A stretch of DNA of 64,000 bases from Candidatus Zixiibacteriota bacterium (GTDB lineage Bacteria > Zixibacteria > MSB-5A5 > UM-FILTER-46-8), in assembly GCA_026983835.1 (NCBI GenBank), contig JALSTH010000104.1, forward strand, positions 3,862 to 67,861, written 5' to 3'. A program made the translations under genes and the position numbers. Below, piece by piece: positions 542-64,000 of the stretch; position 1 is the stretch's first letter; every line of letters starts with the position of its first letter. The notes under the pieces were generated by a model that saw nothing but the letters and a program-made list of their open reading frames with translations, was not told the DNA's origin and ran no database searches.

Positions 542-808
542 CGCCCCCTCCTTAAAATAAATGTCAGTTTAAAAATTCCTTTTGACAGTTAATTAAGCAA
601 TTGGCAGGCCGATACGGCAAAATTTTCGGGAATTGTATTTTATTGAATGTCAATCAGTTATTGGGTACACAATATCAGATAGGCAACAAACTATTACTTC
701 TTTTTGTGAAAGCGCTATAAGGTATTGGGATAATCCGATATATTTTTCTTTTCATTGGCGGGGAAATTATATATATTGTTTTAGGAGAATATATAATATA
801 GGGTTGGA

Positions 809-1756
809 ATGGATAAATTCAGCCGTTTGCTTTATATCATCAATACATTGAGATACAAACGCGGGATGCGTGCTAGGGAAATAGCGGACGATTGTAATGT
901 CTCTCTTAGAACCATATATCGGGATTTAAGCAGCTTATCATCAGCTGGCGTTCCCATTTATTATGAAAATGGTTATAAGATACTTAATGGCGGATTCCTG
1001 CCTCCGCTCAATTTTGAAGAGGAGGAAGCATTTTATATTATATGCGCTCTTTCAAACAATGTTGTCCCGGATGGGAGCTACAATAAGGAAATTAGAAAAA
1101 GCATTTTAGCCAAGTTAAGGGGAAGCCTTTCGGAAAGTATCGGAACTCTCGACACTCCCGAAGCCATCGCAATCTATGCGCGAGTAACCGCAAAGCCCAA
1201 TATTAAGGGTGAGATTTTTGAAACGATAAGGGAGGGTATAAATAATAATTGCGAAACCGAAATAGAATACGATTCTCTGAATTCCGGCGTATCTGGTAGG
1301 ATTGTGGATCCTTACTCCGTCGTCTTTCGGGGGCATTCTTGGTACCTGATAGCTTATTGTCATACAAGGAATGAACTCAGAACTTTCAGGCTTAGCAGGA
1401 TAATTAAAGCAAAAGGGACGGAAAGGAGATTTCGAAGAAAAGACAATTATTCCATAAAGGATTATTTTAAGGACTCATGGGAACTTTATAAAGGGAAATT
1501 GGTTGAGTTTTCAGCGGAATTTCGAGGAAAGGCGAGTAAAGTTATCTTATCGGGTATCCATCACCCCAGCGAAAGCATAAAACTTGAAAGCGGCGGCAGA
1601 GTTATATATTCGGCTAAAGCATCGGGGAGAGAAGAGATTATCAGATGGCTTATCGGGTTTGGAGAGGATGTTAAAATCCTTTCTCCTCCGGATTTAATCG
1701 AGGATGTAAAAAAGCATCTACAATCGACGCTGAATGTTTATCGGGACCCTTCATAA
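809..1756 (+). CDS. WYL-domain transcriptional regulator (N-terminal HTH, central WYL, C-terminal WCX-like; YafY/PafBC-like architecture)
   Basis: N-terminal HTH (LLYIINTLRYKRGMRAREIADDCNVSLRTIYRDL) and WYL core (DPYSVVFRGHSWYLIAYCHTRNELRTFRLSRI). Length 315 aa. Confidence 0.8.
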   Translation: MDKFSRLLYIINTLRYKRGMRAREIADDCNVSLRTIYRDLSSLSSAGVPIYYENGYKILNGGFLPPLNFEEEEAFYIICALSNNVVPDGSYNKEIRKSILAKLRGSLSESIGTLDTPEAIAIYARVTAKPNIKGEIFETIREGINNNCETEIEYDSLNSGVSGRIVDPYSVVFRGHSWYLIAYCHTRNELRTFRLSRIIKAKGTERRFRRKDNYSIKDYFKDSWELYKGKLVEFSAEFRGKASKVILSGIHHPSESIKLESGGRVIYSAKASGREEIIRWLIGFGEDVKILSPPDLIEDVKKHLQSTLNVYRDPS

Positions 1757-1960
1757 AGCACCTAAAATAGCAATTTAGAAATAATATATGGGTGGGCTGC
1801 GATGTAATATTAACTTCTCGACTCGTTTAATAAAGCGAACCAATAGTTTTCCGATAAGTCATATATAATCGCTGGTCAAACAACCGACATTGAAAATCGG
1901 GTTAGAAACTACGGATGAGCGTGTTATTATCATCCATATTAAAATAAGGTAGATGAAAAT

Positions 1961-3271
1961 ATGTTTAAGACCACATATAGACAAGATGGCGAGATCAAAG
2001 AGGTTCGCTCCCTGATAGATGAAATTGACAGCCTAAAAATCCAATTGGATAATATAAAGCATTTGGGGGCGATGATAACCTCCATATTGGATTTCGATAC
2101 AATTCTATCGGTTTTAATGGAAGCTTCCTTGGAGATGGTTAATGGGGAAGTGGGAGGGATATTGATAAACGAGGAGGGGAATTGGGTTCCAAAAATTGCG
2201 ATGGGCTTACAACCCGAATATATAAAATCATGGGAGATTAAAGGGAAAGGTAACATCTTAGATGTTCTTTTATCCACAAAACAGGTTATGCGGATGGATA
2301 ACCCTCGTGAGGCGTTGCTAATACATAGTAAAAAGATGAATGTTGAGTCTCTAATGATTGCACCGGTCCATTCTAAAGGAGAAATTATTGGAGCTGTTAT
2401 AATAGCTAATCGTACCGATGGACTTAACTTCGACGATAAGGATGTATCCAATCTTAAGATGTTGGTGCATTTTACAGCGGTAGCTATTAACAACGCAAAA
2501 CTGCTTCAGCTGACATTGGAAAAACAGCAACTTGACCATGAGCTTTCCGTTGCGAAACTTGTGCAAAGCGCATTATTACCCAGCAGAAAATTAACGATCC
2601 CGGGTGTTATCATTGATGCTTCATATATCCCCGCCAAAGAAGTTGGAGGGGATTATTATGATGTAATAATCAGGGACGATAAGCATTTCGCTGTTGTCGT
2701 CGGTGATGTAACCAACAAGGGTGTTCCCGCGGCTTTGATGATGAGTGCGGCAAGGAGTTTAATAAGGGCGGAATATCGCAATGGGAAAGATGCCGCCTCT
2801 GTTATAAATTCAATCAATCAGCTTCTCTGCGAGGATACCGAGAGGAATTCCGATATGTTTATTACGCTTTTTTATGCGCATATCGATTTAGAGACTAAAA
2901 CGATGGAATATATCAATGGCGGACATCCACCCGGTTTCCTTATACGAAAGGGAGAGGATAATATGGAGATGCTCGGTACTTCGGGGACGATTGTGGGACA
3001 ATTTCCCGAATTTCAATACAGCAGCAAGATGATTAAAATCGAAGAGGAAGATAGAATTGTATTATACACCGATGGCGCTTTTGAATGTTTCGATTCCGAA
3101 GGTCAAATGCTTGGCCTTAACGGGCTTAAAAAAATCGTCAATGAAATCAAAGATTATAAATCTCCGATGTTTTTGGAAGAGATCAATGAGCTTCTGAAAG
3201 ATTATATGGTGGACAAAAGCAAGATAGATGATTTCACAATGCTGGTTTTGGACTTTAAACAAATTCAATAA
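1961..3271 (+). CDS. GAF-domain PP2C-family serine phosphatase (RsbU/SpoIIE-like), input phosphatase of a partner-switching module
   Basis: N-terminal GAF-like region followed by a PP2C/SpoIIE core (GGDYYDV, FAVVVGDVTNKGVPAALMMS, FITLFYAHID, YINGGHPP, VLYTDG). Confidence 0.85.
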   Translation: MFKTTYRQDGEIKEVRSLIDEIDSLKIQLDNIKHLGAMITSILDFDTILSVLMEASLEMVNGEVGGILINEEGNWVPKIAMGLQPEYIKSWEIKGKGNILDVLLSTKQVMRMDNPREALLIHSKKMNVESLMIAPVHSKGEIIGAVIIANRTDGLNFDDKDVSNLKMLVHFTAVAINNAKLLQLTLEKQQLDHELSVAKLVQSALLPSRKLTIPGVIIDASYIPAKEVGGDYYDVIIRDDKHFAVVVGDVTNKGVPAALMMSAARSLIRAEYRNGKDAASVINSINQLLCEDTERNSDMFITLFYAHIDLETKTMEYINGGHPPGFLIRKGEDNMEMLGTSGTIVGQFPEFQYSSKMIKIEEEDRIVLYTDGAFECFDSEGQMLGLNGLKKIVNEIKDYKSPMFLEEINELLKDYMVDKSKIDDFTMLVLDFKQIQ

Positions 3272-3282
3272 GTGGGAAAACT

Positions 3283-3750
3283 ATGGAAAAACATCCTTTA
3301 CATTATGCCTCCCTTGAGTTGAATAACTCGGGACTTTGTATCAAAATTACCGATGATATATTAAAAGCCTTTTTGGAGTTGACATCTTTGGATGATAGAG
3401 AGAAGTATCGGCTGAGGGTGGCTGTTTCCGAAATAGTTACCAACGGTTATTTTCATGGAAATAAACAAAACGCTCAAAAACGGATGTTTTTCAGCTGCAA
3501 TGTATTTAATAACCGTATAGAGATATCGGTTGAAGACGAAGGGGATGGATTTAATGATGATGAGGTAGAAGAAAAATACGGAGCTGCCGGAGAGTATGCA
3601 ACTGGGGGAAGAGGATTAAAAATTGTCGAGAAGGTAGCCGATAGGGTAAAATGTGGAAAGACGGACAACGGGCGCTTTAGGGTATCGCTCTTAAAGTATG
3701 TGAATGCGGAGCCGGTGGAGGCAATAGGCCAAAGTATTGAAAGCTATTAA
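3283..3750 (+). CDS. RsbW/SpoIIAB-like anti-sigma-factor-type serine kinase (GHKL ATPase, HATPase_c_2)
   Basis: N-box-like VAVSEIVTNGYFHG and G-boxes EDEGDGF, GGRGLKIV. It is 155 aa and immediately follows the PP2C gene (11-nt gap). Confidence 0.75.
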   Translation: MEKHPLHYASLELNNSGLCIKITDDILKAFLELTSLDDREKYRLRVAVSEIVTNGYFHGNKQNAQKRMFFSCNVFNNRIEISVEDEGDGFNDDEVEEKYGAAGEYATGGRGLKIVEKVADRVKCGKTDNGRFRVSLLKYVNAEPVEAIGQSIESY

Positions 3751-3788
3751 TCCGAACTATTTGAGCACAAAATACAAGGAGAGCACAG

Positions 3789-4145
3789 ATGAACATTAGC
3801 AAATCAATGGTTGGAGACATTGCCGTAATTAAACTTAATGGGAGACTGGATCTTGAAACCTCAAAGACACTAAAAGGGTTGACCAAAGAGCTTATGGCTG
3901 ACAATCATAATAAAATGATTTTCGATTTAACCGATGTAGATTTTATTAATAGTTCCGGTTTGGGGACACTCGTTTCCATTCTTCGCGATGTGAATTCAAA
4001 AAAAGGGAATTTGGAGCTTTGCTCTCTTGCCCCCTACATCCAAGAGATTTTTGAAATTACACACCTTTCGTCGATATTTCGCATTTATGAGAATGAGGAG
4101 GAAGCTTTATCGAGTTTCGCGGTAACGGAAAATAAAACGGAATAA
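3789..4145 (+). CDS. STAS-domain anti-sigma-factor antagonist (RsbV/SpoIIAA-like)
   Basis: 118 aa. Contains DLTDVDFINSSGLGTLVSI, with the conserved phosphorylatable Ser in a DFINSSG context. Confidence 0.8.
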   Translation: MNISKSMVGDIAVIKLNGRLDLETSKTLKGLTKELMADNHNKMIFDLTDVDFINSSGLGTLVSILRDVNSKKGNLELCSLAPYIQEIFEITHLSSIFRIYENEEEALSSFAVTENKTE

Positions 4146-4244
4146 AAAATAAGTTAAGACGAGGTAAATCGGATGTTTCGGCTATGTTTACGCTTTCGAA
4201 TATTACAAAATTGTTAACGGCTAATCTTATTAGGGGCTAATATA

Positions 4245-4646
4245 ATGAGATATGGAATCCTGGTAATTGATGCGGATATTTTATTGAGAGATATGCTTTA
4301 CGACTTCCTTTACGATAAAGGGTATAATGTGTTCACGGCGGAAGATACGGATTCAGGTAGAGAGGCTGTGCATAAACACAAATTTGATGCCTTAATTATA
4401 AATTTGGATCTCCCCGATGGAGGAGGAATAGAACTTTTATCCGAAATAAAAAAGTCGCATCCGAAAATACCAATTATAGTTATTGCTTCGAAATTAGATG
4501 ACAATGAAAGAAAAATAGTTTATGAATTGGGCATTATCTCCTATATGGAAAAACCCTTGAAAATTTCCAAAATTGCGGCAATCCTCAAAAACTCGCTAAT
4601 GCAAAAAGACGAAACTAACCCCGTTAATTACGGTAATGATAAATGA
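4245..4646 (+). CDS. Single-domain response regulator receiver (CheY-like)
   Basis: Has VIDAD, INLDLPDGGG, VIAS and EKP motifs, which are the canonical receiver Asp/Asp/Thr/Lys positions. Confidence 0.8.
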   Translation: MRYGILVIDADILLRDMLYDFLYDKGYNVFTAEDTDSGREAVHKHKFDALIINLDLPDGGGIELLSEIKKSHPKIPIIVIASKLDDNERKIVYELGIISYMEKPLKISKIAAILKNSLMQKDETNPVNYGNDK

Positions 4647-4814
4647 AATAATTGACCCATAAATTATATGAGAAAAACTTGAATTACCGAACCGAATGAA
4701 TTATTGAAAGCAGATATTAAATAATACAATACAAAGACTCCCTTTTTAATAAGATATTCAACAAGAAGTTATTGAATTTTTCAATTTGCCGTTTTATATT
4801 GAAACAGAAAATAG

Positions 4815-5339
4815 GTGGAGAAGTATATGCCAACTTATAAAATTTTAATCGTTGATGACGAAGCTTTTGTGCGGGAATTGTTAGAAGAATTTTTAGCCAA
4901 ACAGGATTTTGAGATTTTTCTTGCCGATTGCGGAGAAGCCGGCATCAAAATAGCCGGCGAGAATGATATCGATGTGGCTTTGGTGGATTTGAAAATGCCT
5001 GGTATTGATGGACTGGAAACCCTAAAACGGCTCAGAAATATACGCCCCAACATACCGATAATTATTTTGACGGGCTATCCTACTATTGAAACCTCTATCA
5101 AAGCTTTAAGGCTTGGGGCATCTGATTATATAATTAAGCCATTTAAACTTAACGAACTAAAAGCAGTGGTGGAGAAAGCTCTCAAAGAGCGGGAATTGAA
5201 GATGGAAATAAATTTGCTTAGGGATAAAATTAAATCAATCGAAAGCAAATTAAAAAAATACGAGTTGGAAACCGAAGTCTCTTACAATCCGACAATAGAC
5301 ACCGAAAAGGACCCCGAGGATAAAAATAATCAAGAATAA
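4815..5339 (+). CDS. Response regulator receiver domain with a C-terminal coiled-coil/charged tail
   Basis: Has ILIVDDE, VDLKMPGIDG, ILTGY and IKPF. The C-terminal ~50 aa are K/E-rich and helical. Confidence 0.8.
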   Translation: MEKYMPTYKILIVDDEAFVRELLEEFLAKQDFEIFLADCGEAGIKIAGENDIDVALVDLKMPGIDGLETLKRLRNIRPNIPIIILTGYPTIETSIKALRLGASDYIIKPFKLNELKAVVEKALKERELKMEINLLRDKIKSIESKLKKYELETEVSYNPTIDTEKDPEDKNNQE

Positions 5340-5511
5340 GCAAAAACACCTTTTCTCATCAAGCAATGCCAACTATCTTCAGGAAAAAACAGATAACCCG
5401 ATAATATAACTATGCGGCGATATGGATGTCTGCCCCTTTGGGTTGAATGACCTAAATATTCTCAAAAGATTGACTTGAAATTTCTTCAACTATAGTTTAT
5501 TATTTTCCCTG

Positions 5512-5871
5512 ATGAGCGGTAAAGAAAAGGAACTTCAATATATCAATAAACTATACGGGCAAATTCTCAATGTTTACGCCCAATTGGGATATCTAATCGA
5601 CAAATCGGCTGCGGTTTTTAATGATTCATCCGCGCGGCAAATTAAATCTATTCTTTTATCCATAAATACTATTGCCAACGAAATAGGCGAATTGAAGGAT
5701 AAAATTTCGATTCGAAGAAAAATCTACTTTGAATCCGGTTGGGATATCGGGGAATTGGAAAATATTACAAAAGATTTTATAAGGGAATTCAATCCCCTAT
5801 TTGCCGAAGTATTGCGGGCGCAGTCGAGGCTCGAATCAGCAGTTAAACAAAGCGGAGTTAAAATATCGTAG
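5512..5871 (+). CDS. Hypothetical small helical protein (no His residues, so not an HPt)
   Basis: 119-aa ORF sitting between the receivers and the histidine kinase. It overlaps the extended N-terminus of ORF 5801, and its coding status is uncertain. Confidence 0.35.
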   Translation: MSGKEKELQYINKLYGQILNVYAQLGYLIDKSAAVFNDSSARQIKSILLSINTIANEIGELKDKISIRRKIYFESGWDIGELENITKDFIREFNPLFAEVLRAQSRLESAVKQSGVKIS

Positions 5872-5884
5872 GCGTAAGTATCCA

Positions 5885-7147
5885 ATGGAAGGGAAAGACG
5901 GTAATTCATTGATATCCAAGGATCGGTTGCAAGCATTCAGCGAATCGTTCGTCTCCTTTACCGAGATGACTCGACAGCTACAGGAGGCTTATCGCGAATT
6001 AGAACAAAGGTATGAGACGCTTAATAAAAAACTGAGCGAAACCAATATCGAACTGCGGCAATCATTGGCGGAAAAAGACAGACTAAGTTCATATCTAAAC
6101 GATATTCTGGAGAATCTGAACTCGGGTGTTGTTGTTATCGACACGAAGGGAGTAGTCCGTCTTTTTAACAGGGCGGCGGAGCGCATATTAAAATATAATA
6201 ATGATAATGTTATCGGCCGCAAGTGGGGCGATATTATAGATTCCCCCAATACTCCATCCGGTTGTTTGGAGACCCTCACAAAAGGAGCGGTGTTCACCGA
6301 GGAGGAGAAAGTAGTAGCTGATGGTGAAGGAGGATTGATTAACATAGGCTTTTCGACTTCCCTTTTGAAATCCCCTGATGGAGAAGTTATAGGGGCGGTG
6401 GAGGTGTTTTACGATTTAACAAAGATGAAAAATTTGGAAAGGGAAATGACTCGGGTTTCGACGCTTGCCGCTTTGGGGAGGATGGCGGCGACTATTGCTC
6501 ATGAGGTCCGCAATCCTTTGGGTGCCATAGCCGGTTTTGCAGCCTTATTGGATAAGGATACTCCCAAAGATGACGACCGTAAAAAGTTAATCGCAAAAAT
6601 AACAACCGGTATAGGAAGGCTAAATAGGATTGTAAACGGATTACTGGACTTTACGCGGGAACCGAATTTGAATATAACCGATGTCGACCTTGAATCGGTC
6701 ATTTCCGAAGTGATTGAGGAAATCGCAGCAAGGAATAATAAAAGGGGAATAATAATCGAGAGCAAAATAAACGCAAGTCTTGGCAAATATCCGCTCGATA
6801 AAGAGAGTTTTCGATTAGTAATGAATAATTTGATAGATAACGCTATCCAAGCCTCACCCGAAGGGGAGAAGGTAAAAGTGATTCTTAGCCGCAAAGGCTC
6901 TCAGGTAAGGGTGGAAGTAATCGATAAGGGAAAAGGAATTACCGAAGATGTAATAAATAGAATATTCGATCCTTTTTTTACCACTCGGGAGAAGGGAACC
7001 GGTTTGGGTTTACCGGTTGTGAAAAAACTAATCAAAGCACACAACGGAACTATTTTTGCAGAAAGCGGCGGTATAAATAAAGGGGCGAGATTTGTTATTT
7101 GTCTTCCGTTGTTAAACCCCGAACATCCTGATTACAATAAGGAATAA
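5885..7147 (+). CDS. Cytoplasmic PAS sensor histidine kinase, NtrB family (FlrB/FleS/FlgS-like)
   Basis: Coiled coil, then PAS (VVVIDTKGVVRLFNRAAERIL), HisKA H-box (HEVRNPLGAIAGFAALL) and HATPase_c (DKGKGI, GTGLGL). The start was trimmed from ORF 5801 to the internal ATG at ~5885 to avoid overlapping the upstream ORF. Confidence 0.8.
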   Translation: MEGKDGNSLISKDRLQAFSESFVSFTEMTRQLQEAYRELEQRYETLNKKLSETNIELRQSLAEKDRLSSYLNDILENLNSGVVVIDTKGVVRLFNRAAERILKYNNDNVIGRKWGDIIDSPNTPSGCLETLTKGAVFTEEEKVVADGEGGLINIGFSTSLLKSPDGEVIGAVEVFYDLTKMKNLEREMTRVSTLAALGRMAATIAHEVRNPLGAIAGFAALLDKDTPKDDDRKKLIAKITTGIGRLNRIVNGLLDFTREPNLNITDVDLESVISEVIEEIAARNNKRGIIIESKINASLGKYPLDKESFRLVMNNLIDNAIQASPEGEKVKVILSRKGSQVRVEVIDKGKGITEDVINRIFDPFFTTREKGTGLGLPVVKKLIKAHNGTIFAESGGINKGARFVICLPLLNPEHPDYNKE

Positions 7148-7151
7148 AGCT

Positions 7152-8546
7152 ATGCGGAACGATTTTAATAAAGGGATAAAGATTTTAGTAGCCGATGATG
7201 ATTCTTTAATGCGGGATTTCCTGATGGAGGTTTTATCCCGTTCGGGATATCAAGCTTTAAGTGTTCCAGACGGGAAAAGTGCTGTTGAGGCGATTAATCG
7301 GGATGACTTTAACATTATCATAACCGATGTCAAAATGCCGGGTTATGATGGGATGAAGGTCTTAAAAGCGGCATTGAGTAAAAATCCGCAATCTAAGGTT
7401 ATTCTGATTACGGGTTATGGGACAATTGAAAATGCCGTAGCCGCAATGAAGGAAGGTGCCTTTGATTATTTGACAAAAGGCGAGAAAACCTCGCCCGATG
7501 AAATAGAAATAGTGCTGAAACGGGCTATTAATTATCAAAAGCTCGAAACGGAAAACAAACGGCTGAAAAATGAGTTATCGAATAAATATTCTTTTTCCAA
7601 TATGATAGGCAAAAGTCCACAGATGTTGCGTATTTACGATATGATCAAGACGGTTGCCGACAGCAGCGCCACGGTTTTAATCACCGGAAAGTCAGGAACG
7701 GGGAAAGAATTAGTTGCCAAAGCGATACATTTTAACTCAAAGAGAAAAGATTATCCATTTATAAAACTTAACTGTGCCGCCCTGCCGGATGGATTGGTCG
7801 AATCCGAATTGTTCGGCCATGAAAAGGGCGCTTTCACCGGAGCGATAAAAACTGTGAAAGGCAGATTTGAGTTAGCTAATGGGGGCACGGTTTTATTGGA
7901 TGAAATCTCGGAAATGTCGGTTAATATGCAGGCTAAACTGTTGAGGGTTTTGCAGGAGCGGGAGTTTGAACGGATAGGTTCGAGCCGTACCATACAAGCA
8001 GATGTAAGAATCATCGCTACTTCCAATCGGAATTTGAAAGAGGAATACCGTAAAGGGCGCTTTCGGGAAGATCTATATTATAGATTAAATGTAATTCCCA
8101 TTGAGATACCCGAATTATCCGAACGCCGAGAGGATATTCCTCTTTTAATAGAACATTTTATCGAAAAATATTCTTCCAAGAACAATAAACCGATAAAAGC
8201 AATTTCGGAGACGGCAATGAAAGTTCTCTCCGATTATAGTTGGCCCGGAAATGTCCGTGAACTGGAAAATTGTATCGAAAGAGCGGTGGTCGTAAATAAA
8301 TCGGGGACAATAGAAAAAGATGACCTGCCCGGAAATATCTTTGATATTGCAAAAAACGATTTGCCGGAAAGAATCAAACCGGGTATGTCTATAAAAGAGA
8401 TGGAGAAGACTCTCATCCTGAAGACCCTCAAAAAAAGCGGGGGCAACCGAACGCATGCCGCTGAGACTTTGGGCATAACTACAAGAACCTTAAGGAACAA
8501 ACTTGCCGAGTATGGTTTGCATAGCCGTCAGATCGACTCGGAATAA
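7152..8546 (+). CDS. Sigma-54-dependent response regulator, NtrC family (receiver + AAA+ with GAFTGA + Fis-type HTH; FlrC/FleR/FlgR-like)
   Basis: Receiver (ILVADDD, ITDVKMPG), Walker A GKSGTGKE, the ESELFGHEKGAFTGA sigma-54 contact motif, and a C-terminal HTH (RTHAAETLGITTRTLRNKL). It is 4 nt downstream of the kinase. Confidence 0.9.
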   Translation: MRNDFNKGIKILVADDDSLMRDFLMEVLSRSGYQALSVPDGKSAVEAINRDDFNIIITDVKMPGYDGMKVLKAALSKNPQSKVILITGYGTIENAVAAMKEGAFDYLTKGEKTSPDEIEIVLKRAINYQKLETENKRLKNELSNKYSFSNMIGKSPQMLRIYDMIKTVADSSATVLITGKSGTGKELVAKAIHFNSKRKDYPFIKLNCAALPDGLVESELFGHEKGAFTGAIKTVKGRFELANGGTVLLDEISEMSVNMQAKLLRVLQEREFERIGSSRTIQADVRIIATSNRNLKEEYRKGRFREDLYYRLNVIPIEIPELSERREDIPLLIEHFIEKYSSKNNKPIKAISETAMKVLSDYSWPGNVRELENCIERAVVVNKSGTIEKDDLPGNIFDIAKNDLPERIKPGMSIKEMEKTLILKTLKKSGGNRTHAAETLGITTRTLRNKLAEYGLHSRQIDSE

Positions 8547-8683
8547 TCTATTGTTCCTTTCCATAATAGGGCATAATGTGGGATTGATTCGATTCTTCAC
8601 CTGAGGGTTTAATCTATTCTAAAATTGCCGATATTTTAAGTAATTATTGGTTTTTAGACGACAATCTTAAAAAAAGAGCTTAT

Positions 8684-9441
8684 ATGGATATTACTACCAT
8701 AGGGGGGTTGATTTTAGGTATCGGCGCCGTATTGTTTTCCTTTTTTATGGAGGGTGGGCATATTTCCGCAATTATCAGAATTCCCGCAATGATAATTGTT
8801 ATATTCGGAGCCATAGGCGCTACTATAATTACTACTTCCTTCGATAGCATAAAAAGTTTTCCGAAGCTAATCAAAATAGCCTTTTTCCCGGAAAAGCAAA
8901 ACGCTCCCGAGATAATTAAACAAATCGTAAATATGGCACGAAGTGCAAGGCGCGACGGTATTCTTGGGCTTGAACCATATTTAAATGAAATAAAAAATCC
9001 CTTTTATAATAGGGCCGTCCAGCTACTAATAGACGGGACGGAAATGACTGAGCTCAGGGATTTGCTTGAGATGGAGTTGGATAATATTACCAAACGGCAT
9101 AAAGCCGGGATATCGTTGTTTCAAAAATTGGGGGGGTTTTCCCCGACAATGGGAATAATCGGAACTGTCTTGGGATTCATTCCCTAGCTAACACCGATGA
9201 TGCCGGCAAAATGGCTTCCTCTATCGCCTCAGCCTTTATCGCCACTTTATGGGGCGTTGCTTTGGCAAATTTGGTTTACCTTCCCATCGGAGATAAACTC
9301 AGGCGCAGACATGAGGAAGAGATAAGGCTTTTGAATATAATATTAGAGGGAGTAGTCTCCATACAATCGGGAGAAAATCCCCGCATTATCAAAACCAAGC
9401 TATTATCCTTTATCGAACCAGAAAACCGTAAGGTCCGTTGA
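8684..9441 (+). pseudogene. motA: motA flagellar stator protein MotA/PomA family, split into two ORFs (8684..9187 and 9211..9441) by an apparent frameshift near 9180
   Basis: ORF1 ends ...GGFSPTMGIIGTVLGFIP*. An overlapping frame then continues (H)SLANTDDAGKMASSIASAFIATLWGVALANLVYLPIGDKL..., matching the MotA TM3-TM4 region. Both halves are MotA-like, and a -1 slip at ATT_CCC restores one protein. Confidence 0.7.
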
Positions 9442-10136
9442 TTATGCGAAAAACGGATAGAGATGATGACAACGAAAACCTTGATCGTTGGCTATTGACC
9501 TATGCGGATTTAATTACGCTGTTATTGGCACTGTTTATCGTAATGTATTCGATATCGCGCATAGATACAAAGAAATTCGGGAAAGTTTCTGAGGCTTTTA
9601 ATACGGCTTTGAGTGGTACCAACGGGACATTGAAAAACGCTGAAGCCATTCTTCAGAAAGACAATTTAGATAAACTGGTAAAAATAGATAAGCTCCTTAA
9701 TATACAAACTCAAATTAGAGGATTTGTGGCTTCACAGGGTATGGAAAAGGATATCGATGTTATTTTAGAAAAAAATGATTTAACGGTTCATGTAACGGAA
9801 TCGGCATTTTTCGAATCCGGGAAAGCGGACATAAAACCAAAGGCTAAGAAATTCCTAAGATCCCTATCCTCGGTTCTCAAACAAATTCCCAACGAGATAA
9901 GAGTAGAAGGGCATACTGATAACATCCCGATAAGCACTCCTCAGTTTCCATCTAACTGGGAGCTATCGGTTATGAGGGCAACGAAGGTCGTTCGATTTCT
10001 GACAGAGCGGTGTGGAATAAAACCAAAAAGGATCTCAGCCCTCGGTTTCGGCGAATATAAACCGAGATTCCCCAATGATACCCCGGATAACCGTCGACGA
10101 AATAGACGAGTGGATATTGTGATACTTCGGGAATAA
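9438..10136 (+). CDS. motB: Flagellar motor protein MotB (single TM + OmpA-like peptidoglycan-binding C-terminus)
   Basis: N-terminal LTYADLITLLLALFIVMY plug/TM region and OmpA-like FESGKADIKPKAKKFL...GHTDNIPI...LSVMRATKV. It overlaps the motA end by 4 nt (ATGA). Confidence 0.85.
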   Translation: MIMRKTDRDDDNENLDRWLLTYADLITLLLALFIVMYSISRIDTKKFGKVSEAFNTALSGTNGTLKNAEAILQKDNLDKLVKIDKLLNIQTQIRGFVASQGMEKDIDVILEKNDLTVHVTESAFFESGKADIKPKAKKFLRSLSSVLKQIPNEIRVEGHTDNIPISTPQFPSNWELSVMRATKVVRFLTERCGIKPKRISALGFGEYKPRFPNDTPDNRRRNRRVDIVILRE

Positions 10137-10189
10137 TATTTTTGGCATCGCCTGATTGCCCCATATTAAATTTTTTAAATTACGATGGG

Positions 10190-10783
10190 TTATAAGGGTT
10201 TTCTGTCTTTAAGAGCCTTTGATAAGGTTACGATATCTGCGAATTCCAAATCGCCCCCTATTGGTAAACCTCTTGATATACGGGTTACTTTCACCTTAAA
10301 TGGTTTTAACAATTCCATTATATATTCCGCTGTTGCCTCGCCCTCAGTATTCGGATTGGTCGCCAATATTATCTCGGCCGCACCCTCGGAAACTCTATTT
10401 AACAGTGACCTTATCCTCAAATCGTCAGGTCCTATTCCATCAAGAGGGGAAAGCGCCCCCCCTAAAATATGGAATACTCCTTTATACTCATTGGTTTTCT
10501 CAAGAGCAAAAACATCCGAGGGCTTTTCAACTACACATATTATATTTTTGTCCCTGTCGGGATTACTGCATATAGCGCAGGGGTCTGTCTCGGTGATGTT
10601 TCCGCAGATGGAGCATTCGATAACTTTACTTTTTACTTCGATAATCGTTTCCGCTAATTCTTTTGCTTTATCATCGGGAAGTTTAAGAATATAGAAAGCC
10701 AACCTTCGGGCGGTTTTATAGCCGATGCCGGGCATTCCGGCGAATTGCCTTATAAGTTTTTCAAGCAGGGGAGAGGTAAACAT
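10190..10783 (-). CDS. recR: Recombination protein RecR
   Basis: LIRQFAGMPGIGYKTARRLAFYIL HhH motif, Cys4 zinc finger (CSICGNITETDPCAIC) and Toprim region. Length 197 aa. Confidence 0.95.
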   Translation of the reverse strand: MFTSPLLEKLIRQFAGMPGIGYKTARRLAFYILKLPDDKAKELAETIIEVKSKVIECSICGNITETDPCAICSNPDRDKNIICVVEKPSDVFALEKTNEYKGVFHILGGALSPLDGIGPDDLRIRSLLNRVSEGAAEIILATNPNTEGEATAEYIMELLKPFKVKVTRISRGLPIGGDLEFADIVTLSKALKDRKPL

Positions 10784-11141: not shown

Positions 11142-12830
11142 TCAATTGCCCTCTTTATCTTTGGGTTTCCAGTCCACTAAATGCCCCCCGAATTTCTTTA
11201 GCGCCGAATCTATTATCTTATCGCCGGTAGGACCGGCAAACATAGGTTTATTTTGTTTTTCAGGATTACTCTTCTCAGTTAAAGCATCGGATTTACTATC
11301 GAAATTAAACTCCAAACGGATCGGGGTACCGAAAATTTTCTCGGTTAATAAATTTAGGGCTTTGATATTGTTCGGGGTATTTATTAAATTCGGAATTCCG
11401 GAATTGGTAACCTTTAATGTTAAGGTATTATTATCGAGGGCTTTTGGGATAGCTCCATTTAACAAAGCCCATAAGGTTTTCCTTTTCTTGCTCATTTCCT
11501 CAACAACAAGCTTCCAACCGCTTAAAACGGATCCCCAATCATTTCTATCGATTTTAATCGGGATTTTTCCTTTTATGCTTTCTTCTTTTGGTATTATTTT
11601 CAGTTCGGGGTGGTTATTAGGTATGGATGTTGGCTGTTGCGCTTTTTGGGGAAAATCAAAAATATCAGGTTCCTTAAAATCGGCGGCTATATTGGCATTG
11701 GAATATTCCATTTTTAACAGTTTCTCCAAATCGATGGTTTTTTCGAGGTTTGCCATCTTAATAAGGGCTAATTCGATGGAGATTATCGGTTCTATCGTCT
11801 TACGCCTGAAACCCGCAAAAAGCTCAGCGGATATATTCAACATCCTTAAAAGTTTACCCTCATCGAGATTTTTAAGGGCTTCTCGATATCCCTCTAAATA
11901 GTCCCCTGCAATTTCACCCAAATATTGTCCATCATTATCTAATTTTATAACCAAAAGGTCTCTAAAATGCTTGTTTAAGCTTTCGAGGAAGTATTCGATA
12001 TTGCCTCCCGAATTGATAAAAGTACGAAATAATTTAATAACTTCTAAAGGTTTTGAACGGCTAATGGATATGGATATTTCCAATAATACTTTTTTATCAA
12101 CCAATCCCAATATTTCGGAGACTTTCTCCGAATTGATTTTTTCATCACTCGAAGCAATAACCTGATCCAGTAACGATAATGCATCCCTTAAACTGCCGGA
12201 AGCCTTTGTGCAAATCAGTTCCATTCCCTCCTCATCAAGGACAACCCCTTCTTTATCACATATTGATTTGACCGCATTAATCAATTTTGGAAGGGGTATA
12301 AGTCTAAAATCGAACTTAAGACAGCGGGACATAATTGTGGCCGGAACCTTCTGGGGTTCGGTAGTCGCCATAATAAATATGCCATGTTTGGGTGGTTCTT
12401 CGAGAGTTTTCAGCAAAGCGTTGAAAGCCTCCGAGGTGAGCTGGTGGACCTCATCAATGATGTAAATTTTATACTTGGATCTGATGGGAGTATATCTTAT
12501 CGCCTCGCGCAGGTCGCGTATATCATCGATACCACGATTGGAAGCCGCGTCGATTTCAATTACATCGGGACTGTTCCCGGAGGCGATTTCCAAACAGGAA
12601 TTACAGATGGAGCAAGGTTCACCATCTGTAGGATTTTCACAATTAAGCGCTTTGGATAAAACGCGGGCGGTTGTTGTTTTTCCGGTTCCGCGGGGTCCCG
12701 AAAAAAGATAACCGTGGTGTATTTTACCAAAGGCGACCGCATTTTTTAGCGTCAGGGTAATATGTTCCTGCGCTATTATTTCGGAAAAGTTCTGCGGCCT
12801 ATGTTTGAGGGCGATTACTTTATAGGTCAT
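11142..12830 (-). CDS. dnaX: DNA polymerase III subunit gamma/tau
   Basis: Walker A GPRGTGKTT, zinc module (CENPTDGEPCSICNSC) and the SRC motif. The start was trimmed to MTYKVIALKHRPQNF at ~12830, because the track ORF extension (to 12917) would overlap the SRP RNA gene. Confidence 0.9.
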   Translation of the reverse strand: MTYKVIALKHRPQNFSEIIAQEHITLTLKNAVAFGKIHHGYLFSGPRGTGKTTTARVLSKALNCENPTDGEPCSICNSCLEIASGNSPDVIEIDAASNRGIDDIRDLREAIRYTPIRSKYKIYIIDEVHQLTSEAFNALLKTLEEPPKHGIFIMATTEPQKVPATIMSRCLKFDFRLIPLPKLINAVKSICDKEGVVLDEEGMELICTKASGSLRDALSLLDQVIASSDEKINSEKVSEILGLVDKKVLLEISISISRSKPLEVIKLFRTFINSGGNIEYFLESLNKHFRDLLVIKLDNDGQYLGEIAGDYLEGYREALKNLDEGKLLRMLNISAELFAGFRRKTIEPIISIELALIKMANLEKTIDLEKLLKMEYSNANIAADFKEPDIFDFPQKAQQPTSIPNNHPELKIIPKEESIKGKIPIKIDRNDWGSVLSGWKLVVEEMSKKRKTLWALLNGAIPKALDNNTLTLKVTNSGIPNLINTPNNIKALNLLTEKIFGTPIRLEFNFDSKSDALTEKSNPEKQNKPMFAGPTGDKIIDSALKKFGGHLVDWKPKDKEGN

Positions 12831-12840
12831 AATAATTTTT

Positions 12841-13104
12841 GTGTGCACCCACCTCCGACCCTCTGCACAAATGCGCATCGGGGTAGTTAACTCAGACCGA
12901 GCCACCCCGCAACACACCGAGTGTTCGCTTACCGCTGCTACCTTCCGGTCCTGACGGGGTTCGGCGATCTTCAGTTGTGCGGGACCCGATCCTCAACGCC
13001 ACTTGCACCGATAACGCAAATGGCTTTAGGCCTCGGGTGGGAATTCGACCCCGGTATAGCGGATTCCGGGTTACAGGGCACCGCTAGCTCCCCGTCTAGC
13101 ACAT
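12841..13104 (-). ncRNA. ffs: Signal recognition particle RNA, long (Bacillus-type, Alu-domain-containing) form, about 264 nt
   Basis: Minus-strand sequence contains the domain IV core GUCAGGACCGGAAGGUAGCAGC. The 5' part (GUGCUAGACGGGGAGCUAGCGGUGCCCUGUAACCCGGAAUCCGCU...) closely parallels the Alu domain of B. subtilis scRNA, and the 3' end (...GGUGGGUGCACAC) pairs back with the 5' end. It lies between tRNA-Ala and dnaX, as in the scr-dnaX-yaaK-recR arrangement. Confidence 0.85.
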
Positions 13105-13186: not shown

Positions 13187-13399
13187 ATTCCTTTCACTAA
13201 AAATCAAACAATAATATAAAAAATCAATAATTATTGCAAATGAAAATTTGTAAAGGTTAATTTCAAGCGGAATATTCAATATTGGAACTCATCGGATATT
13301 TTTGTAAATAAAAACCGCAAGTGTTCCGATAACATATATAACCACAAATAGTTGTGGAAAGCGGTCTAATCTTACATTTAAGCATCCGGAGATTATTTA

Positions 13400-15428: not shown

Positions 15429-15443
15429 TGGCACATAATTTGC
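15429..15443 (+). promoter_or_regulatory. Sigma-54 (RpoN) -24/-12 promoter element, TGGCAC-N5-TTGC
   Basis: Sequence tTGGCACataatTTGCt matches the canonical consensus exactly, about 70 nt upstream of ATG 15514. A good Shine-Dalgarno (AAGGGAG) precedes the start. Confidence 0.55.
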
Positions 15444-16396: not shown

Positions 16397-16587
16397 ATTT
16401 CGTACATTCCCATTTTAAAATAATATCTTTACTACCGGTTCTATCCCGCAACTCGGCATTACAATCGAAAATTCCGGAAAATATCATATAAACTATTTTC
16501 ATATCGCATAATCAATCAAGCATCACCCCCTTGATGCCGATAATAATATTACTGTTTTGAAAAATAATAATCCTTCGATTAGATGAT

Positions 16588-56751: not shown

Positions 56752-56766
56752 GCAATTATTGTGCCG
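56752..56766 (-). promoter_or_regulatory. Sigma-54 (RpoN) -24/-12 element upstream of the flgF operon
   Basis: Minus strand reads cGGCACaataaTTGCt, with invariant GG and GC at correct spacing. The -12 element is about 48 nt upstream of the flgF ATG, which has a strong Shine-Dalgarno (AAGGAAGG). Confidence 0.55.
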
Positions 56767-57428: not shown

Positions 57429-57470
57429 AGATGTAAAATTCGATAAACAATTAATCCATAATGTATCACC

Positions 57471-57866: not shown

Positions 57867-57879
57867 CGTTCCCCCCTTG

Positions 57880-58233: not shown

Positions 58234-58238
58234 CCTTT

Positions 58239-63950: not shown

Positions 63951-64000
63951 AACCCCCCCTATTTATTAAACTTATCCTTAATCATATTTCGCAACCTTAA

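What the first reader, a model, noticed from the sequence alone, without database searches (positions are those of the whole stretch)
1961..10136. Partner-switching triad with no sigma factor, embedded in a flagellar regulatory block (receivers, FlrBC-like sigma-54 TCS, motAB)
The window shows a GAF-PP2C phosphatase, an RsbW-like kinase and a STAS antagonist in tandem, with no sigma-B/sigma-F gene adjacent. They are followed co-directionally by two orphan receivers, an NtrB/NtrC-type pair and motA-motB. In established systems, partner switches without a cognate sigma factor regulate other targets (e.g. Pseudomonas HptB-HsbR-HsbA acting on FlgM and flagellar expression). The inference is that this triad is a motility-control input rather than a stress-sigma switch, and the RsbW-like kinase target is unknown.
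Basis: partly seen in the sequence, partly recalled or inferred. Interest (0 to 1): 0.6.

Follow-up and report, generated by a model that had tools for sequence, protein, structure and literature searches.

The report
Flagellum-linked partner-switching module in Zixibacteria
A three-protein phospho-switch normally used to control stress sigma factors is a conserved first element of the flagellar and chemotaxis gene cluster of an uncultured phylum (Zixibacteria). It appears to be switched on by the flagellar sigma factor, so it most likely tunes motility, as a distantly analogous switch does in Pseudomonas.

Summary
Window 1961-10136 encodes, co-directionally, a GAF-PP2C phosphatase, an RsbW-type serine kinase, a single-domain STAS protein, two receivers, an unnoticed 119-aa ORF, a soluble PAS histidine kinase, a sigma-54 activator, and motA-motB. 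All catalytic motifs are intact. The organism is a Zixibacterium.

The motility reading gains two independent supports.
- In 20+ Zixibacteria-type loci (PP2C 31-60% identical), the triad heads the same array: REC, often HEAT-CheR-CheY-CheY-CheZ-CheA-CheB, then HK, sigma-54 activator, motAB, flgBC-fliEFG. More distant GAF-PP2C loci lack flagellar neighbours.
- A sigma-28-type promoter motif (TAAA-N15-CCGATA) lies upstream of the phosphatase gene in 10 of 20 loci, against about 0.3-0.6 expected. It also precedes motA.

No group-3 sigma gene lies within 10 kb of the triad. However, fliA sits at the window's right edge (63959-64723). No FlgM was detectable.

The target stays unproven; I favour control of sigma-28 activity. 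This is a new variant of a known kind (cf. Pseudomonas HptB-HsbR-HsbA). Interest is moderate.

The parts
1831..1857 (+). Sigma-28 (FliA)-type promoter-like motif TAAAGCGAACCAATAGTTTTCCGATAA, 104-130 nt upstream of the phosphatase start codon
   Evidence: An equivalent motif lies upstream of the orthologous gene in 10 of 20 loci. Poisson P is about 7e-10 against the background rate. In 500 dinucleotide shuffles the mean was 0.25 and the maximum 2.
1961..3271 (+). GAF-PP2C (SpoIIE-family) serine phosphatase, 436 aa, soluble
   Evidence: Pfam SpoIIE E 4e-45 and GAF E 2e-8. PDB hits to the Rv1364c, RssB and SpoIIE phosphatase domains and to a cyclic-nucleotide-type GAF, 5w10. D231, D249, D371 and D423/D424 are invariant in 19 orthologues, as is the GAF N150..F157..D161 motif. 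No transmembrane segment.
3283..3750 (+). RsbW/SpoIIAB-type serine kinase (anti-sigma-factor fold), 155 aa
   Evidence: Pfam HATPase_c_2 E 1e-15. PDB RsbW 6m36 E 3e-9 and SpoIIAB E 2e-4. N-box E50/N54, G1 D85-E-G-D-G89 and G2 G109-R-G111 are present and largely conserved in 22 orthologues. NCBIfam RsbW scores 55.6 bits, below the equivalog cut-off of 145.
3789..4145 (+). Single-domain STAS protein (anti-sigma antagonist type), 118 aa. The predicted phospho-acceptor is Ser55 (codon 3951-3953).
   Evidence: Pfam STAS E 1e-20. It passes the NCBIfam TIGR00377 superfamily cut-off, 81.4 against 53.45 bits. 'FINSSGLG' aligns to SpoIIAA 'FMDSSGLG', which contains Ser58. 'INSSGLG' is invariant in 20 orthologues.
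4245..4646 (+). Stand-alone receiver 1, 133 aa
   Evidence: Pfam Response_reg E 5e-21. A receiver follows the STAS gene, or the HEAT-repeat gene, in every orthologous locus long enough to show it.
4827..5339 (+). Stand-alone receiver 2 with a C-terminal coiled-coil tail, 170 aa
   Evidence: Pfam Response_reg E 6e-32. The start follows the gene call in the identical public contig.
5512..5871 (+).
   Evidence: No Pfam or NCBIfam hit. Positional counterparts of 124-125 aa occur in L001 and L002. phmmer gives 7e-7 to the L002 counterpart. No other homologue was found through the word-indexed 5.8-billion-protein search.
5885..7147 (+). Soluble PAS-HisKA-HATPase histidine kinase (NtrB/AtoS type), 420 aa
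   Evidence: Pfam. NCBIfam best match is AtoS at 291 bits, below 646; FlgS scores 104, below 600. No transmembrane segment.
7152..8546 (+). Sigma-54-dependent response regulator (REC, AAA+, HTH_8), 464 aa
   Evidence: Pfam Sigma54_activat E 3e-72. Walker A at residue 179 and GAFTGA at 226-231. NCBIfam scores: AtoC 516, FlbD 385, FlgR 341, all below their cut-offs.
8609..8634 (+). Sigma-28-type promoter-like motif TTAATCTATTCTAAAATTGCCGATAT upstream of motA
   Evidence: It aligns with the same element at the same distance in L001 and L002, and is also present in L003 and L013.
8684..9441 (+). motA stator gene. In this window it is disrupted by a 4-bp deletion (AATT) between 9174 and 9175.
   Evidence: The Pfam MotA_N and MotA_ExbB matches are split over two ORFs. 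The identical ENA contig carries an intact 253-aa MotA, which scores 244.7 bits against NCBIfam 'flagellar motor protein', above the cut-off of 237.
9444..10136 (+). motB stator gene, 230 aa
   Evidence: Pfam MotB_plug E 3e-19 and OmpA E 9e-23.
56752..56766 (-). Sigma-54 promoter-like site CGGCACAATAATTGC just upstream of flgF. It is a likely target of the sigma-54 activator in the block.
   Evidence: one mismatch to TGGCAC-N5-TTGC. Comparable sites lie upstream of flgB in L001, L011 and L013.
63959..64000 (-). 3' end of fliA (sigma-28). The rest of the gene lies just beyond the window, at window-equivalent 63959-64723.
   Evidence: locus L091, same contig. NCBIfam TIGR02479 FliA_WhiG scores 267.8 bits, above the cut-off of 189.6.

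Best explanation
The triad is a functional partner-switching module that belongs to the flagellar/chemotaxis regulon of Zixibacteria.

Shown here:
- The three proteins have the full catalytic equipment of an RsbU/RsbW/RsbV-type switch: the PP2C metal-binding aspartates, the kinase N/G1/G2 boxes, and an invariant STAS serine (Ser55).
- The genes form the conserved head of a co-directional array: receiver(s), optionally HEAT-repeat protein plus CheR/Y/Y/Z/A/B, then a PAS kinase, a sigma-54 activator, motAB and flgBC-fliEFG.
- The triad and motA are each preceded by a sigma-28 (FliA)-type promoter motif. The flgB and flgF operons are preceded by sigma-54 promoter motifs.
- fliA is present on the same contig, as the last recognised flagellar gene of the fliM...flhA-flhF-flhG run.

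Inferred mechanism:
1. The sigma-54 activator turns on the basal-body operons, including fliA.
2. Sigma-28 then transcribes the late genes: stator, chemotaxis genes and the triad.
3. The kinase phosphorylates STAS Ser55. The GAF-PP2C removes the phosphate when its GAF domain senses a small ligand. The neighbouring stand-alone receiver may also modulate this step, since it is the domain fused to the phosphatase-kinase in HsbR and SypE.
4. The phosphorylation state of STAS decides whether the kinase, or the STAS protein itself, is free to bind its target.
5. I consider the most likely target to be sigma-28 activity. Either the RsbW-type kinase sequesters FliA, which is a group-3 sigma like SigB and SigF, or unphosphorylated STAS displaces an anti-sigma-28 factor, as HsbA does with FlgM. 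Either way the module would place a metabolic or signal-dependent feedback on late flagellar and chemotaxis gene expression.
For: - Domains and motifs.
- Organism and orthologues.
- Synteny at 31-60% PP2C identity: L001-L006 and 17 species-representative genomes L007-L023. In many of these loci the intergenic gaps through triad-HEAT-REC-che-HK are 40 nt or less (for example L017).
- Flagellar and che neighbours occur only in the orthologous group, not in 63 more distant GAF-PP2C loci.
- PP2C and kinase are fused into one polypeptide in L010 and L014. This ties those two activities together.
- The sigma-28-type motif lies upstream of the triad in 10 of 20 loci, against 0.58 expected (P about 7e-10). 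Shuffles gave a mean of 0.25 and a maximum of 2. It also lies upstream of motA in 5 loci.
- Sigma-54 promoters lie upstream of flgF in the window and of flgB in relatives.
- fliA is on the same contig.
- No other group-3 sigma lies near the triad.
- No FlgM was detected in the visible flagellar loci.
- Precedent: HsbR-HsbA acts on FlgM/FliA and RpoS, and its genes sit inside the Pseudomonas flagellar cluster (PMC6482189; PMC8256260; bioRxiv 10.1101/2021.08.29.457346).
Against: - No binding or phosphorylation was tested. The target is inferred only from context and analogy.
- The sigma-28 motif was found in half of the loci, not all. Start codons in the other loci are uncertain.
- The heptamer GCCGATA is generally over-represented in this window, 32 copies against 9.8 expected. 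The enrichment statistics were therefore computed against the real sequence background and against shuffles, not against a uniform model.
- The loci are phylogenetically related, so they are not fully independent.
- The kinase G1 box is degenerate in three orthologues, L004, L007 and L008.
- Several known sigma-less partner switches (RbaV, HmpV, SypA, BtrV) act through non-sigma targets.
- FlgM is hard to detect by sequence, and only about 85 kb of a 179-kb contig of this genome was visible.
- In this window the triad-motAB block is separated from the rest of the flagellar genes, and motA is frameshifted.
Confidence: 0.6

Rival explanations
1. The switch is motility-linked, but its output is not a sigma factor. 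The STAS protein (or the kinase) acts post-translationally on a non-sigma partner. Candidates are the adjacent receivers, the PAS kinase / sigma-54 activator pair, the HEAT-repeat protein and chemotaxis proteins found next to it in most lineages, the stator, or a c-di-GMP enzyme (as with HsbA-HsbD).
For: - The genes immediately downstream of STAS are always receivers and, in most lineages, a HEAT-repeat protein plus a complete che operon.
- Late, sigma-28-type expression together with mot and che genes fits control of motor or chemotaxis behaviour as well as control of transcription.
- Known sigma-less switches work through non-sigma targets: RbaV, HmpV, SypA, BtrV and HsbA-HsbD (PMC5085249, listed).
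- The receiver domain is fused to the phosphatase-kinase in HsbR. This suggests that receiver-switch cross-talk is an ancestral theme.
Against: - The kinase keeps the small RsbW/SpoIIAB architecture typical of sigma-binding anti-sigma factors.
- No specific non-sigma partner is conserved in all lineages apart from a receiver. The HEAT and che genes are absent from the window's own clade.
Confidence: 0.27
2. It is a conventional anti-sigma / anti-anti-sigma switch for a stress or other alternative sigma factor encoded elsewhere in the genome. Its position next to flagellar genes only serves to couple that response to the motile state.
For: - The best family matches of the kinase and STAS are RsbW/SpoIIAB and SpoIIAA.
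- Only part of the genome could be inspected.
- HsbR also binds RpoS in Pseudomonas.
Against: - No group-3 sigma lies within 10 kb in any of 86 loci.
- Deep conservation of the flagellar and che context, and only in the orthologous group.
- The sigma-28-type promoter.
- The kinase and STAS scores are far below the RsbW/SpoIIAB/SpoIIAA equivalog cut-offs.
Confidence: 0.1
3. The adjacency is fortuitous. The triad is an unrelated signalling cassette that happens to lie next to motility genes in this genome.
For: - In this window the block is followed by recR-ybaB-dnaX rather than by flagellar genes.
- GAF-PP2C plus STAS cassettes without flagellar neighbours are common in other phyla.
Against: - The same order is kept across loci whose PP2C proteins are only 31-36% identical.
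- Gene fusion of PP2C and kinase, and tight operon-like spacing with che genes.
- The shared sigma-28-type promoter.
Confidence: 0.03

Closest known systems
Pseudomonas aeruginosa / P. putida HptB-HsbR-HsbA partner switch (PA3345-PA3347)
   Same: - It combines PP2C phosphatase, RsbW-like kinase and a single-domain STAS protein with a conserved phospho-serine.
- The gene order is phosphatase, kinase, STAS.
- There is no adjacent cognate sigma.
- The genes are embedded in the flagellar gene cluster.
- The output bears on FliA, through FlgM, and on motility.
- In two Zixibacteria-type loci the phosphatase and kinase are fused, as in HsbR.
   Different: - The input domain is GAF, not a receiver fed by an Hpt protein, and no Hpt gene is present in the block.
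- The phosphatase and kinase are separate genes in the window.
- The promoter is sigma-28-like here, but sigma-70-like upstream of hsbA in P. putida.
- The organism belongs to a different phylum (FCB group).
- Orthology to HsbR/HsbA was not tested, because no sequences were available to the tools.
- No FlgM was detected.
Bacillus subtilis RsbU-RsbV-RsbW-SigB and SpoIIE-SpoIIAA-SpoIIAB-SigF
   Same: - The same three protein families and the same catalytic motifs.
- The closest solved structures by sequence are RsbW (6m36), SpoIIAB and SpoIIAA.
- The sigma factors controlled by these systems are group-3 sigmas, the group to which FliA belongs. FliA here also matches the SigB/F/G model at E 2e-42.
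   Different: - No sigma gene is in the operon.
- The gene order is phosphatase-kinase-STAS rather than STAS-kinase-sigma.
- NCBIfam scores are far below the equivalog cut-offs.
- The context is flagellar and chemotactic, not stress or sporulation.
Sigma-less, motility- or behaviour-linked switches: Rhodobacter RbaV/RbaW/RbaY, Nostoc HmpU/HmpV/HmpW, Vibrio fischeri SypE/SypA, Bordetella BtrU/BtrW/BtrV
   Same: - These are partner-switch triads with no adjacent cognate sigma factor.
- The unphosphorylated STAS protein is thought to be the output.
- They are linked to motility (RbaV, HmpV) and lie next to chemotaxis-like genes in Nostoc.
   Different: - They control type IV pili, hormogonia, gene transfer agent, biofilm or type III secretion, rather than a bacterial flagellum cluster.
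- Their sensor domains differ.
- None is reported with a sigma-28 promoter. That last point rests on my own knowledge and was not checked in the papers.
FlgSR / FlrBC / FleSR flagellar sigma-54 two-component systems
   Same: - A soluble PAS histidine kinase paired with a REC-AAA+(GAFTGA)-HTH activator.
- It is encoded next to flagellar genes.
- Sigma-54 promoters precede the rod operons.
   Different: - The best family matches are AtoS/AtoC.
- FlgS, FlgR and FlbD models are matched well below their cut-offs.
- The assignment is therefore contextual.

Membership tests
RsbU/RsbW/RsbV-type partner-switching system | PP2C (SpoIIE-family) phosphatase with conserved metal-binding aspartates | tested here: met
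   Pfam SpoIIE E 4e-45. D231, D249, D371 and D423/D424 are invariant in 19 orthologues.
RsbU/RsbW/RsbV-type partner-switching system | Small GHKL serine kinase (HATPase_c_2) with N, G1 and G2 boxes | tested here: met
   Pfam E 1e-15. Alignment to RsbW and SpoIIAB shows E50/N54, DEGDG and GGRGL. The boxes are conserved in most orthologues, but G1 is degenerate in 3 of 22.
RsbU/RsbW/RsbV-type partner-switching system | Single-domain STAS protein with the phosphorylatable serine | tested here: met
   Ser55 aligns with SpoIIAA Ser58. INSSGLG is invariant in 20 orthologues. TIGR00377 scores 81.4 bits, above the cut-off of 53.45.
RsbU/RsbW/RsbV-type partner-switching system | Cognate group-3 sigma factor gene in or next to the operon | tested here: not met
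   phmmer with E. coli and Zixibacterial FliA found no sigma ORF within 10 kb in 86 loci. The nearest is fliA, about 60 kb away.
RsbU/RsbW/RsbV-type partner-switching system | Equivalog-level match to RsbW, SpoIIAB or SpoIIAA | tested here: not met
   RsbW 55.6 bits against a cut-off of 145; SpoIIAB 46.8 against 135; SpoIIAA 68.2 against 114.75.
RsbU/RsbW/RsbV-type partner-switching system | Kinase binds and inhibits a sigma factor; STAS relieves the inhibition when dephosphorylated | not testable with these tools
   This needs interaction and transcription assays, or multimer structure prediction.
HptB-HsbR-HsbA (Pseudomonas) | Phosphatase, kinase and STAS encoded within the flagellar gene cluster | tested here: met
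   for Zixibacteria. for Pseudomonas.
HptB-HsbR-HsbA (Pseudomonas) | One polypeptide with receiver, PP2C and kinase domains (HsbR) | tested here: not met
   In the window these are separate genes, and the phosphatase has an N-terminal GAF domain. A GAF-PP2C-kinase fusion occurs in L010 and L014, still without a receiver.
HptB-HsbR-HsbA (Pseudomonas) | Adjacent Hpt phosphotransfer protein feeding the switch | tested here: not met
   No Hpt domain occurs in any protein of the block. The only Hpt domain seen is the one in CheA of relatives.
HptB-HsbR-HsbA (Pseudomonas) | STAS binds FlgM when unphosphorylated | not testable with these tools
   No FlgM was detectable in the visible DNA. Interaction cannot be computed here.
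HptB-HsbR-HsbA (Pseudomonas) | Sequence orthology to PA3346 / PA3347 | not tested
FlgSR / FlrBC flagellar sigma-54 two-component system | REC-AAA+(GAFTGA)-HTH activator plus soluble PAS histidine kinase | tested here: met
FlgSR / FlrBC flagellar sigma-54 two-component system | Family-level match to FlgS/FlgR or FlbD | tested here: not met
   FlgS 104 bits against 600; FlgR 341 against 750; FlbD 385 against 750. AtoS and AtoC score higher.
FlgSR / FlrBC flagellar sigma-54 two-component system | Sigma-54 promoters in front of basal-body and rod operons | tested here: met
   Window 56752-56766, upstream of flgF. Upstream of flgB in L001, L011 and L013. These are consensus matches only.
Sigma-28 (FliA) regulon | TAAA-N15-GCCGATAA-type promoter upstream, and a FliA gene in the genome | tested here: met
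   Motif at 1831-1857, with enrichment across orthologous loci. FliA passes TIGR02479. Actual use of the promoter was not tested.
MotAB stator | Intact MotA (MotA_N plus MotA_ExbB) and MotB (plug plus OmpA) | tested here: inconclusive
   The domains are present. motA is frameshifted in the window but intact in the otherwise identical ENA contig.

The most novel reading that the evidence does not exclude
Zixibacteria may have no secreted FlgM checkpoint. Instead, the RsbW-type kinase encoded at the head of the late flagellar/chemotaxis operon would be the anti-sigma-28 factor. FliA would transcribe its own inhibitor together with the antagonist (STAS) and the GAF-sensor phosphatase. Late flagellar, stator and chemotaxis expression would then be gated by a small-molecule signal through serine phosphorylation, rather than by hook completion. 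That would be a partner switch recruited as the primary regulator of the flagellar sigma factor.
Probability: 0.15. Interest if true: 0.65.

Novelty: new variant of a known kind. Interest (0 to 1): 0.42.

Why it matters
Flagellar gene control has been worked out in only a few cultured phyla. The Pseudomonas Hsb system is the only case described in detail, among the papers I read here, of a partner switch wired into flagellar sigma-factor control.

This result shows a deeply conserved switch with different wiring at the head of the flagellar/chemotaxis supercluster of an uncultured FCB-group phylum. It has a GAF input, split genes and a sigma-28-type promoter. Two things follow.
- Phospho-serine partner switching may be a recurrent, independently recruited way of coupling motility to cellular signals.
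- There is now a concrete, testable candidate for how sigma-28 is controlled in a lineage where no FlgM is recognisable.

The result also gives a provisional outline of the Zixibacterial flagellar hierarchy: sigma-54 plus activator for basal-body operons, and sigma-28 for stator, chemotaxis and switch genes.

Tried and rejected
Nothing scored below E about 1. Pfam and NCBIfam scans of every small unannotated protein in the visible flagellar clusters gave no FlgM or other informative hit. These proteins were the 109-aa and 156-aa genes after fliA, the 131-aa gene between receivers, the roughly 107-aa gene between flgC and fliE in relatives, and the 119-aa ORF. This does not prove absence.
- Sigma factor next to the triad: none found.
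- Homologues of the 119-aa ORF in the 5.8-billion-protein set: only itself.
- Sigma-70-type promoters and intrinsic terminators in 1600-10400: counts at or below shuffle expectation, so they say nothing about operon boundaries.
- Generic sigma-54 pattern over the window: the total count is at chance (27 against 28.9). Only the sites directly upstream of flgF, and of the gene at 15514, were kept.
- Rfam: no RNA element in the block. The only matches were SRP RNA and two tRNAs elsewhere.
- Repeats in the block: only short chance-level matches.
- Walking to the rest of the flagellar operon, or scanning the whole genome, was not possible with the look-up rules.
Monomer predictions were judged uninformative for the open question and were not run.
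- Considered and rejected: that the block is a mobile or defence element. It has no such domains, and its chromosomal synteny is conserved.

Full report
**1. Observation**

- 1961-3271: GAF plus SpoIIE/PP2C.
- 3283-3750: HATPase_c_2.
- 3789-4145: STAS.
- 4245-4646 and 4827-5339: receivers.
- 5885-7147: PAS-HisKA-HATPase kinase.
- 7152-8546: REC, sigma-54 AAA+, HTH_8 activator, with Walker A and GAFTGA motifs.
- 8684-9441: motA.
- 9444-10136: motB.

Three details were missed.
- A 119-aa ORF without any known domain lies at 5512-5871.
- motA is split in this window.
- The flagellar sigma factor gene lies at the very edge of the window (section 6).

**2. Source**

The phosphatase is identical to a protein on a 179-kb ENA metagenome contig. 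Its nearest named relatives are from candidate division Zixibacteria. The window also carries type IX secretion markers, Por_Secre_tail and SprA, which fits an FCB-group organism.

The window equals that contig from position 63495 on. About 22 kb were compared, and the differences are:
- a 4-bp deletion (AATT) at window 9174/9175, which frameshifts motA;
- two substitutions, at 62638 and 63882.

The ENA copy encodes an intact 253-aa MotA. The frameshift is therefore either an assembly error or a strain variant. It is not a property of the lineage.

**3. The triad is catalytically complete**

- STAS. 'FINSSGLG' aligns to SpoIIAA 'FMDSSGLG', which places Ser55 on the phosphorylated Ser58. 'INSSGLG' is invariant in 20 orthologues.
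- Kinase. It aligns to RsbW (6m36, E 3e-9) and SpoIIAB. It has the N-box (E50, N54), the G1 box (D85-E-G-D-G89) and the G2 box (G109-R-G111). These are conserved in most orthologues, but G1 is degenerate in three.
- Phosphatase. The aspartates D231, D249, D371 and D423/D424 are invariant in 19 orthologues. So is an N..F..D motif in the GAF domain. The best structural relative of the GAF domain by sequence is a cyclic-nucleotide-type GAF, 5w10. That is only a weak lead to the ligand.
- All three proteins, and the histidine kinase, lack transmembrane segments.
- At family level the STAS protein passes the anti-sigma-antagonist superfamily model. The kinase and STAS score far below the RsbW, SpoIIAB and SpoIIAA equivalog cut-offs.

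**4. Conserved context**

Look-ups of five orthologues covered P0002, P0003, P0009, P0012 and P0018, at 60, 58, 35, 36 and 31% identity. A scan of one genome per species then returned 17 further orthologous loci, L007-L023. These carry labels of Zixibacteria, GN15, 'Ignavibacteriales' or unclassified MAGs.

I annotated all loci by phmmer with reference proteins from the window and from annotated loci. This gives one recurrent order:
1. PP2C, kinase, STAS.
2. In most lineages, a 635-aa HEAT-repeat protein.
3. One or two receivers.
4. In many lineages, CheR-CheY-CheY-CheZ-CheA-CheB.
5. PAS kinase and sigma-54 activator.
6. motA-motB.
7. flgB-flgC, a small ORF, fliE-fliF-fliG.

Further points:
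- Gaps are often 40 nt or less through triad-HEAT-REC-che-HK, for example in L017.
- In L010 and L014 the GAF-PP2C and the kinase are one polypeptide.
- Loci that stop right after the kinase (L009, L018, L019) are short contigs.
- None of the 63 more distant GAF-PP2C loci, L024-L086, shows flagellar structural or stator genes nearby.
- In the window's genome the array ends after motB and is followed by recR-ybaB-dnaX on the other strand. The rest of the flagellar genes have been separated from it.

**5. Promoters**

A sigma-28-type motif lies within 250 nt upstream of the phosphatase gene in 10 of 20 non-redundant loci. The motif is TAAA (at most one mismatch), a 14-16 nt spacer, then xCCGATA. 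The window copy is at 1831-1857, TAAAGCGAACCAATAGTTTTCCGATAA.

- The rate of this motif over all 737,600 nt of the same loci, both strands, predicts 0.58 hits (Poisson P about 7e-10).
- Dinucleotide-preserving shuffles of the upstream regions give a mean of 0.25 loci, with a maximum of 2 in 500.
- The spacers are unrelated in sequence. What is conserved is the motif, not the flanking DNA.
- The same element precedes motA in the window (8609-8634) and in L001, L002, L003 and L013. Its distance to the start codon is conserved in the three closest genomes.

Sigma-54 consensus sites lie directly upstream of flgF in the window (56752-56766, one mismatch). They also lie upstream of flgB in L001, L011 and L013.

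Taken together, this suggests the following hierarchy. The sigma-54 activator drives the basal-body operons. Sigma-28 drives the stator, the chemotaxis genes and the triad.

**6. Sigma and anti-sigma genes**

No sigma-70-family ORF was found next to the triad in any locus.

One look-up from the last window gene showed what lies just beyond the right edge, on the minus strand. The genes there are fliM-fliN-fliO-fliP-fliQ-fliR-flhB-flhA-flhF-flhG-fliA. Downstream of fliA come the genes visible in the window:
- a 109-aa and a 156-aa unknown protein;
- DUF2225;
- a weak PilZ-like protein;
- a GAF protein and a GAF-kinase;
- two receivers;
- flgFGAHIJ-flgN-flgK-csrA-flgL-fliW.

The sigma factor passes the FliA/WhiG model, 267.8 bits against a cut-off of 189.6. 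It is 62-72% identical across many Zixibacteria. The same post-fliA arrangement occurs in the MAG that also holds locus L002.

FlgM is not next to flgN, and it was not detectable anywhere in the visible DNA. Its absence is therefore not established.

**7. Mechanism**

Shown:
- a complete phosphatase / kinase / STAS module;
- conserved linkage to flagellar and chemotaxis genes;
- a sigma-28-type promoter;
- fliA in the genome.

Inferred:
- The kinase phosphorylates Ser55 of STAS.
- The GAF-PP2C reverses this on ligand binding.
- The stand-alone receiver that always follows may modulate the pair. It is the domain fused to the phosphatase-kinase in HsbR and, from my own knowledge, in SypE.
- The switch controls late flagellar and chemotaxis expression.

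I favour sigma-28 activity as the target, with roughly one-third probability within the overall model. The kinase could act as a direct anti-sigma-28, since FliA is a group-3 sigma like SigB and SigF and matches the SigB/F/G model at E 2e-42. Alternatively, STAS could act against an unrecognised anti-sigma-28 factor, as HsbA does with FlgM. Transcription of the module by sigma-28 would then close a feedback loop, as is known for flgM in enteric bacteria (established knowledge).

The main rival is a non-sigma, post-translational target among the neighbouring receivers, HEAT and Che proteins, the two-component pair or the stator. That would follow the precedents of RbaV, HmpV, SypA, BtrV and HsbA-HsbD. 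A stress sigma encoded elsewhere, and chance adjacency, are much less likely.

**8. Comparison with known systems**

The closest functional analogue is HptB-HsbR-HsbA. In P. putida its genes lie inside the 59-gene flagellar cluster and are co-transcribed with fliK...flhB.

The Zixibacterial module shares:
- the phosphatase-kinase-STAS order;
- the lack of an adjacent sigma gene;
- the flagellar context.

It differs in:
- the input domain, which is GAF rather than a receiver fed by Hpt;
- gene fission, with separate phosphatase and kinase genes;
- promoter type, sigma-28-like here against a sigma-70-like motif upstream of hsbA;
- phylum.

Orthology could not be tested. It is not an RsbW/SigB or SpoIIAB/SigF member, because it fails the equivalog thresholds and has no operonic sigma gene. 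'FlrBC-like' is a contextual label only. A review of STAS-only proteins already notes that some lie in motility or chemotaxis operons with unknown roles. No paper retrieved links Zixibacteria to such a system.

**9. Verdict**

It is a new variant of a known kind, not a new category. Interest is moderate at 0.42.
- It would not astonish a specialist, who knows the Hsb system.
- It does define a conserved, testable regulator of flagellar gene expression in an uncultured phylum.
- It raises a specific and more novel possibility, a partner switch acting as the anti-sigma-28 in place of FlgM. I rate that at about 0.15.

Noticed in passing
window 9174/9175 (motA, 8684-9441): There is a 4-bp deletion (AATT) relative to the otherwise identical ENA contig ERZ27262647 k141_524001. 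It frameshifts motA into two ORFs, while the ENA copy encodes an intact 253-aa MotA. Two further substitutions between the copies lie at 62638 and 63882. This could be an assembly error or a strain-level loss-of-function variant.
   Followed up: partly
window 63959-64000 (-) and beyond (locus L091 1-9650): The fliA (sigma-28) gene ends just inside the window. Upstream of it on the same strand lie fliM, fliN, fliO, fliP, fliQ, fliR, flhB, flhA, flhF and flhG. The window therefore clips the main flagellar operon at its last gene.
   Followed up: yes
window 63621-63950 (-) and 63138-63608 (-): Two genes without any known domain follow fliA directly: a very charged 109-aa protein and a 156-aa protein with an N-terminal hydrophobic segment. 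The pair recurs after fliA in another Zixibacterial MAG (L093: 108 aa and 209 aa). Their position makes them candidates for a sigma-28 regulator, but there is no sequence evidence for that.
   Followed up: partly
window 49627-49896 (-) and 47132-47665 (-): A csrA gene sits between flgK and a 636-aa flgL/flagellin-like gene, with fliW just downstream. These are the components of the FliW-CsrA flagellin translation switch known from Bacillus. csrA and fliW also follow the fliA-linked signalling genes in the complete genome CP070839.1 (L092).
   Followed up: partly
window 56988-63025 (-): A second conserved signalling block lies between fliA and flgF. It comprises DUF2225, a weak PilZ-like protein, a 206-aa unknown, a GAF protein, a GAF-HisKA kinase without a recognisable ATPase domain, a receiver, a 131-aa protein with a weak MCP-signal match, and a second receiver. 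The same set occurs in L093 and partly in L092.
   Followed up: partly
window 15429-15443 (+): A perfect sigma-54 promoter consensus, TGGCACATAATTTGC, lies 70 nt upstream of a gene (15514-16338) for a protein with a type IX secretion C-terminal sorting domain.
   Followed up: no
window 13305-13332 (+), 16516-16543 (+), 589-615 (+): Further sigma-28-type motifs lie in intergenic DNA. They are upstream of a 608-aa protein with no known domain (13400-15226), upstream of a 444-aa protein with no clear domain (16588-17922), and upstream of the small ORF / WYL regulator gene that precedes the triad. These are possible additional members of the sigma-28 regulon.
   Followed up: no
whole window: The heptamer GCCGATA occurs 32 times, against 9.8 expected from dinucleotide-preserving shuffles (none of 100 shuffles reached 32). 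Most copies are inside coding regions. I have no explanation for this.
   Followed up: no
L010 9770-11647 and L014 9917-11635: In two related MAGs the GAF-PP2C phosphatase and the RsbW-type kinase are fused into one 570-625-aa protein. This is an HsbR-like architecture with GAF in place of the receiver.
   Followed up: yes
L004 12146-14053, L006 3457-5367 and equivalents in L008, L012, L015-L017, L020-L023: In most Zixibacteria-type lineages a 635-aa HEAT-repeat protein is encoded directly after the STAS gene and before the receiver and che genes. It is absent from the window's own clade.
   Followed up: partly
L001 17592-17915, L003 18050-18379, L011 10213-10530, L013 18190-18447: A conserved small ORF of 85-109 aa with no known domain lies between flgC and fliE in relatives. 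Three of the four copies begin MKI..IG..AYQ, or a similar sequence. Its function is unknown.
   Followed up: partly
window 12841-13104 (-): The SRP RNA gene overlaps the 5' end of the longest dnaX ORF (11142-12917, GTG start). The real dnaX start is therefore further downstream, giving the 578 aa called in the public contig.
   Followed up: no
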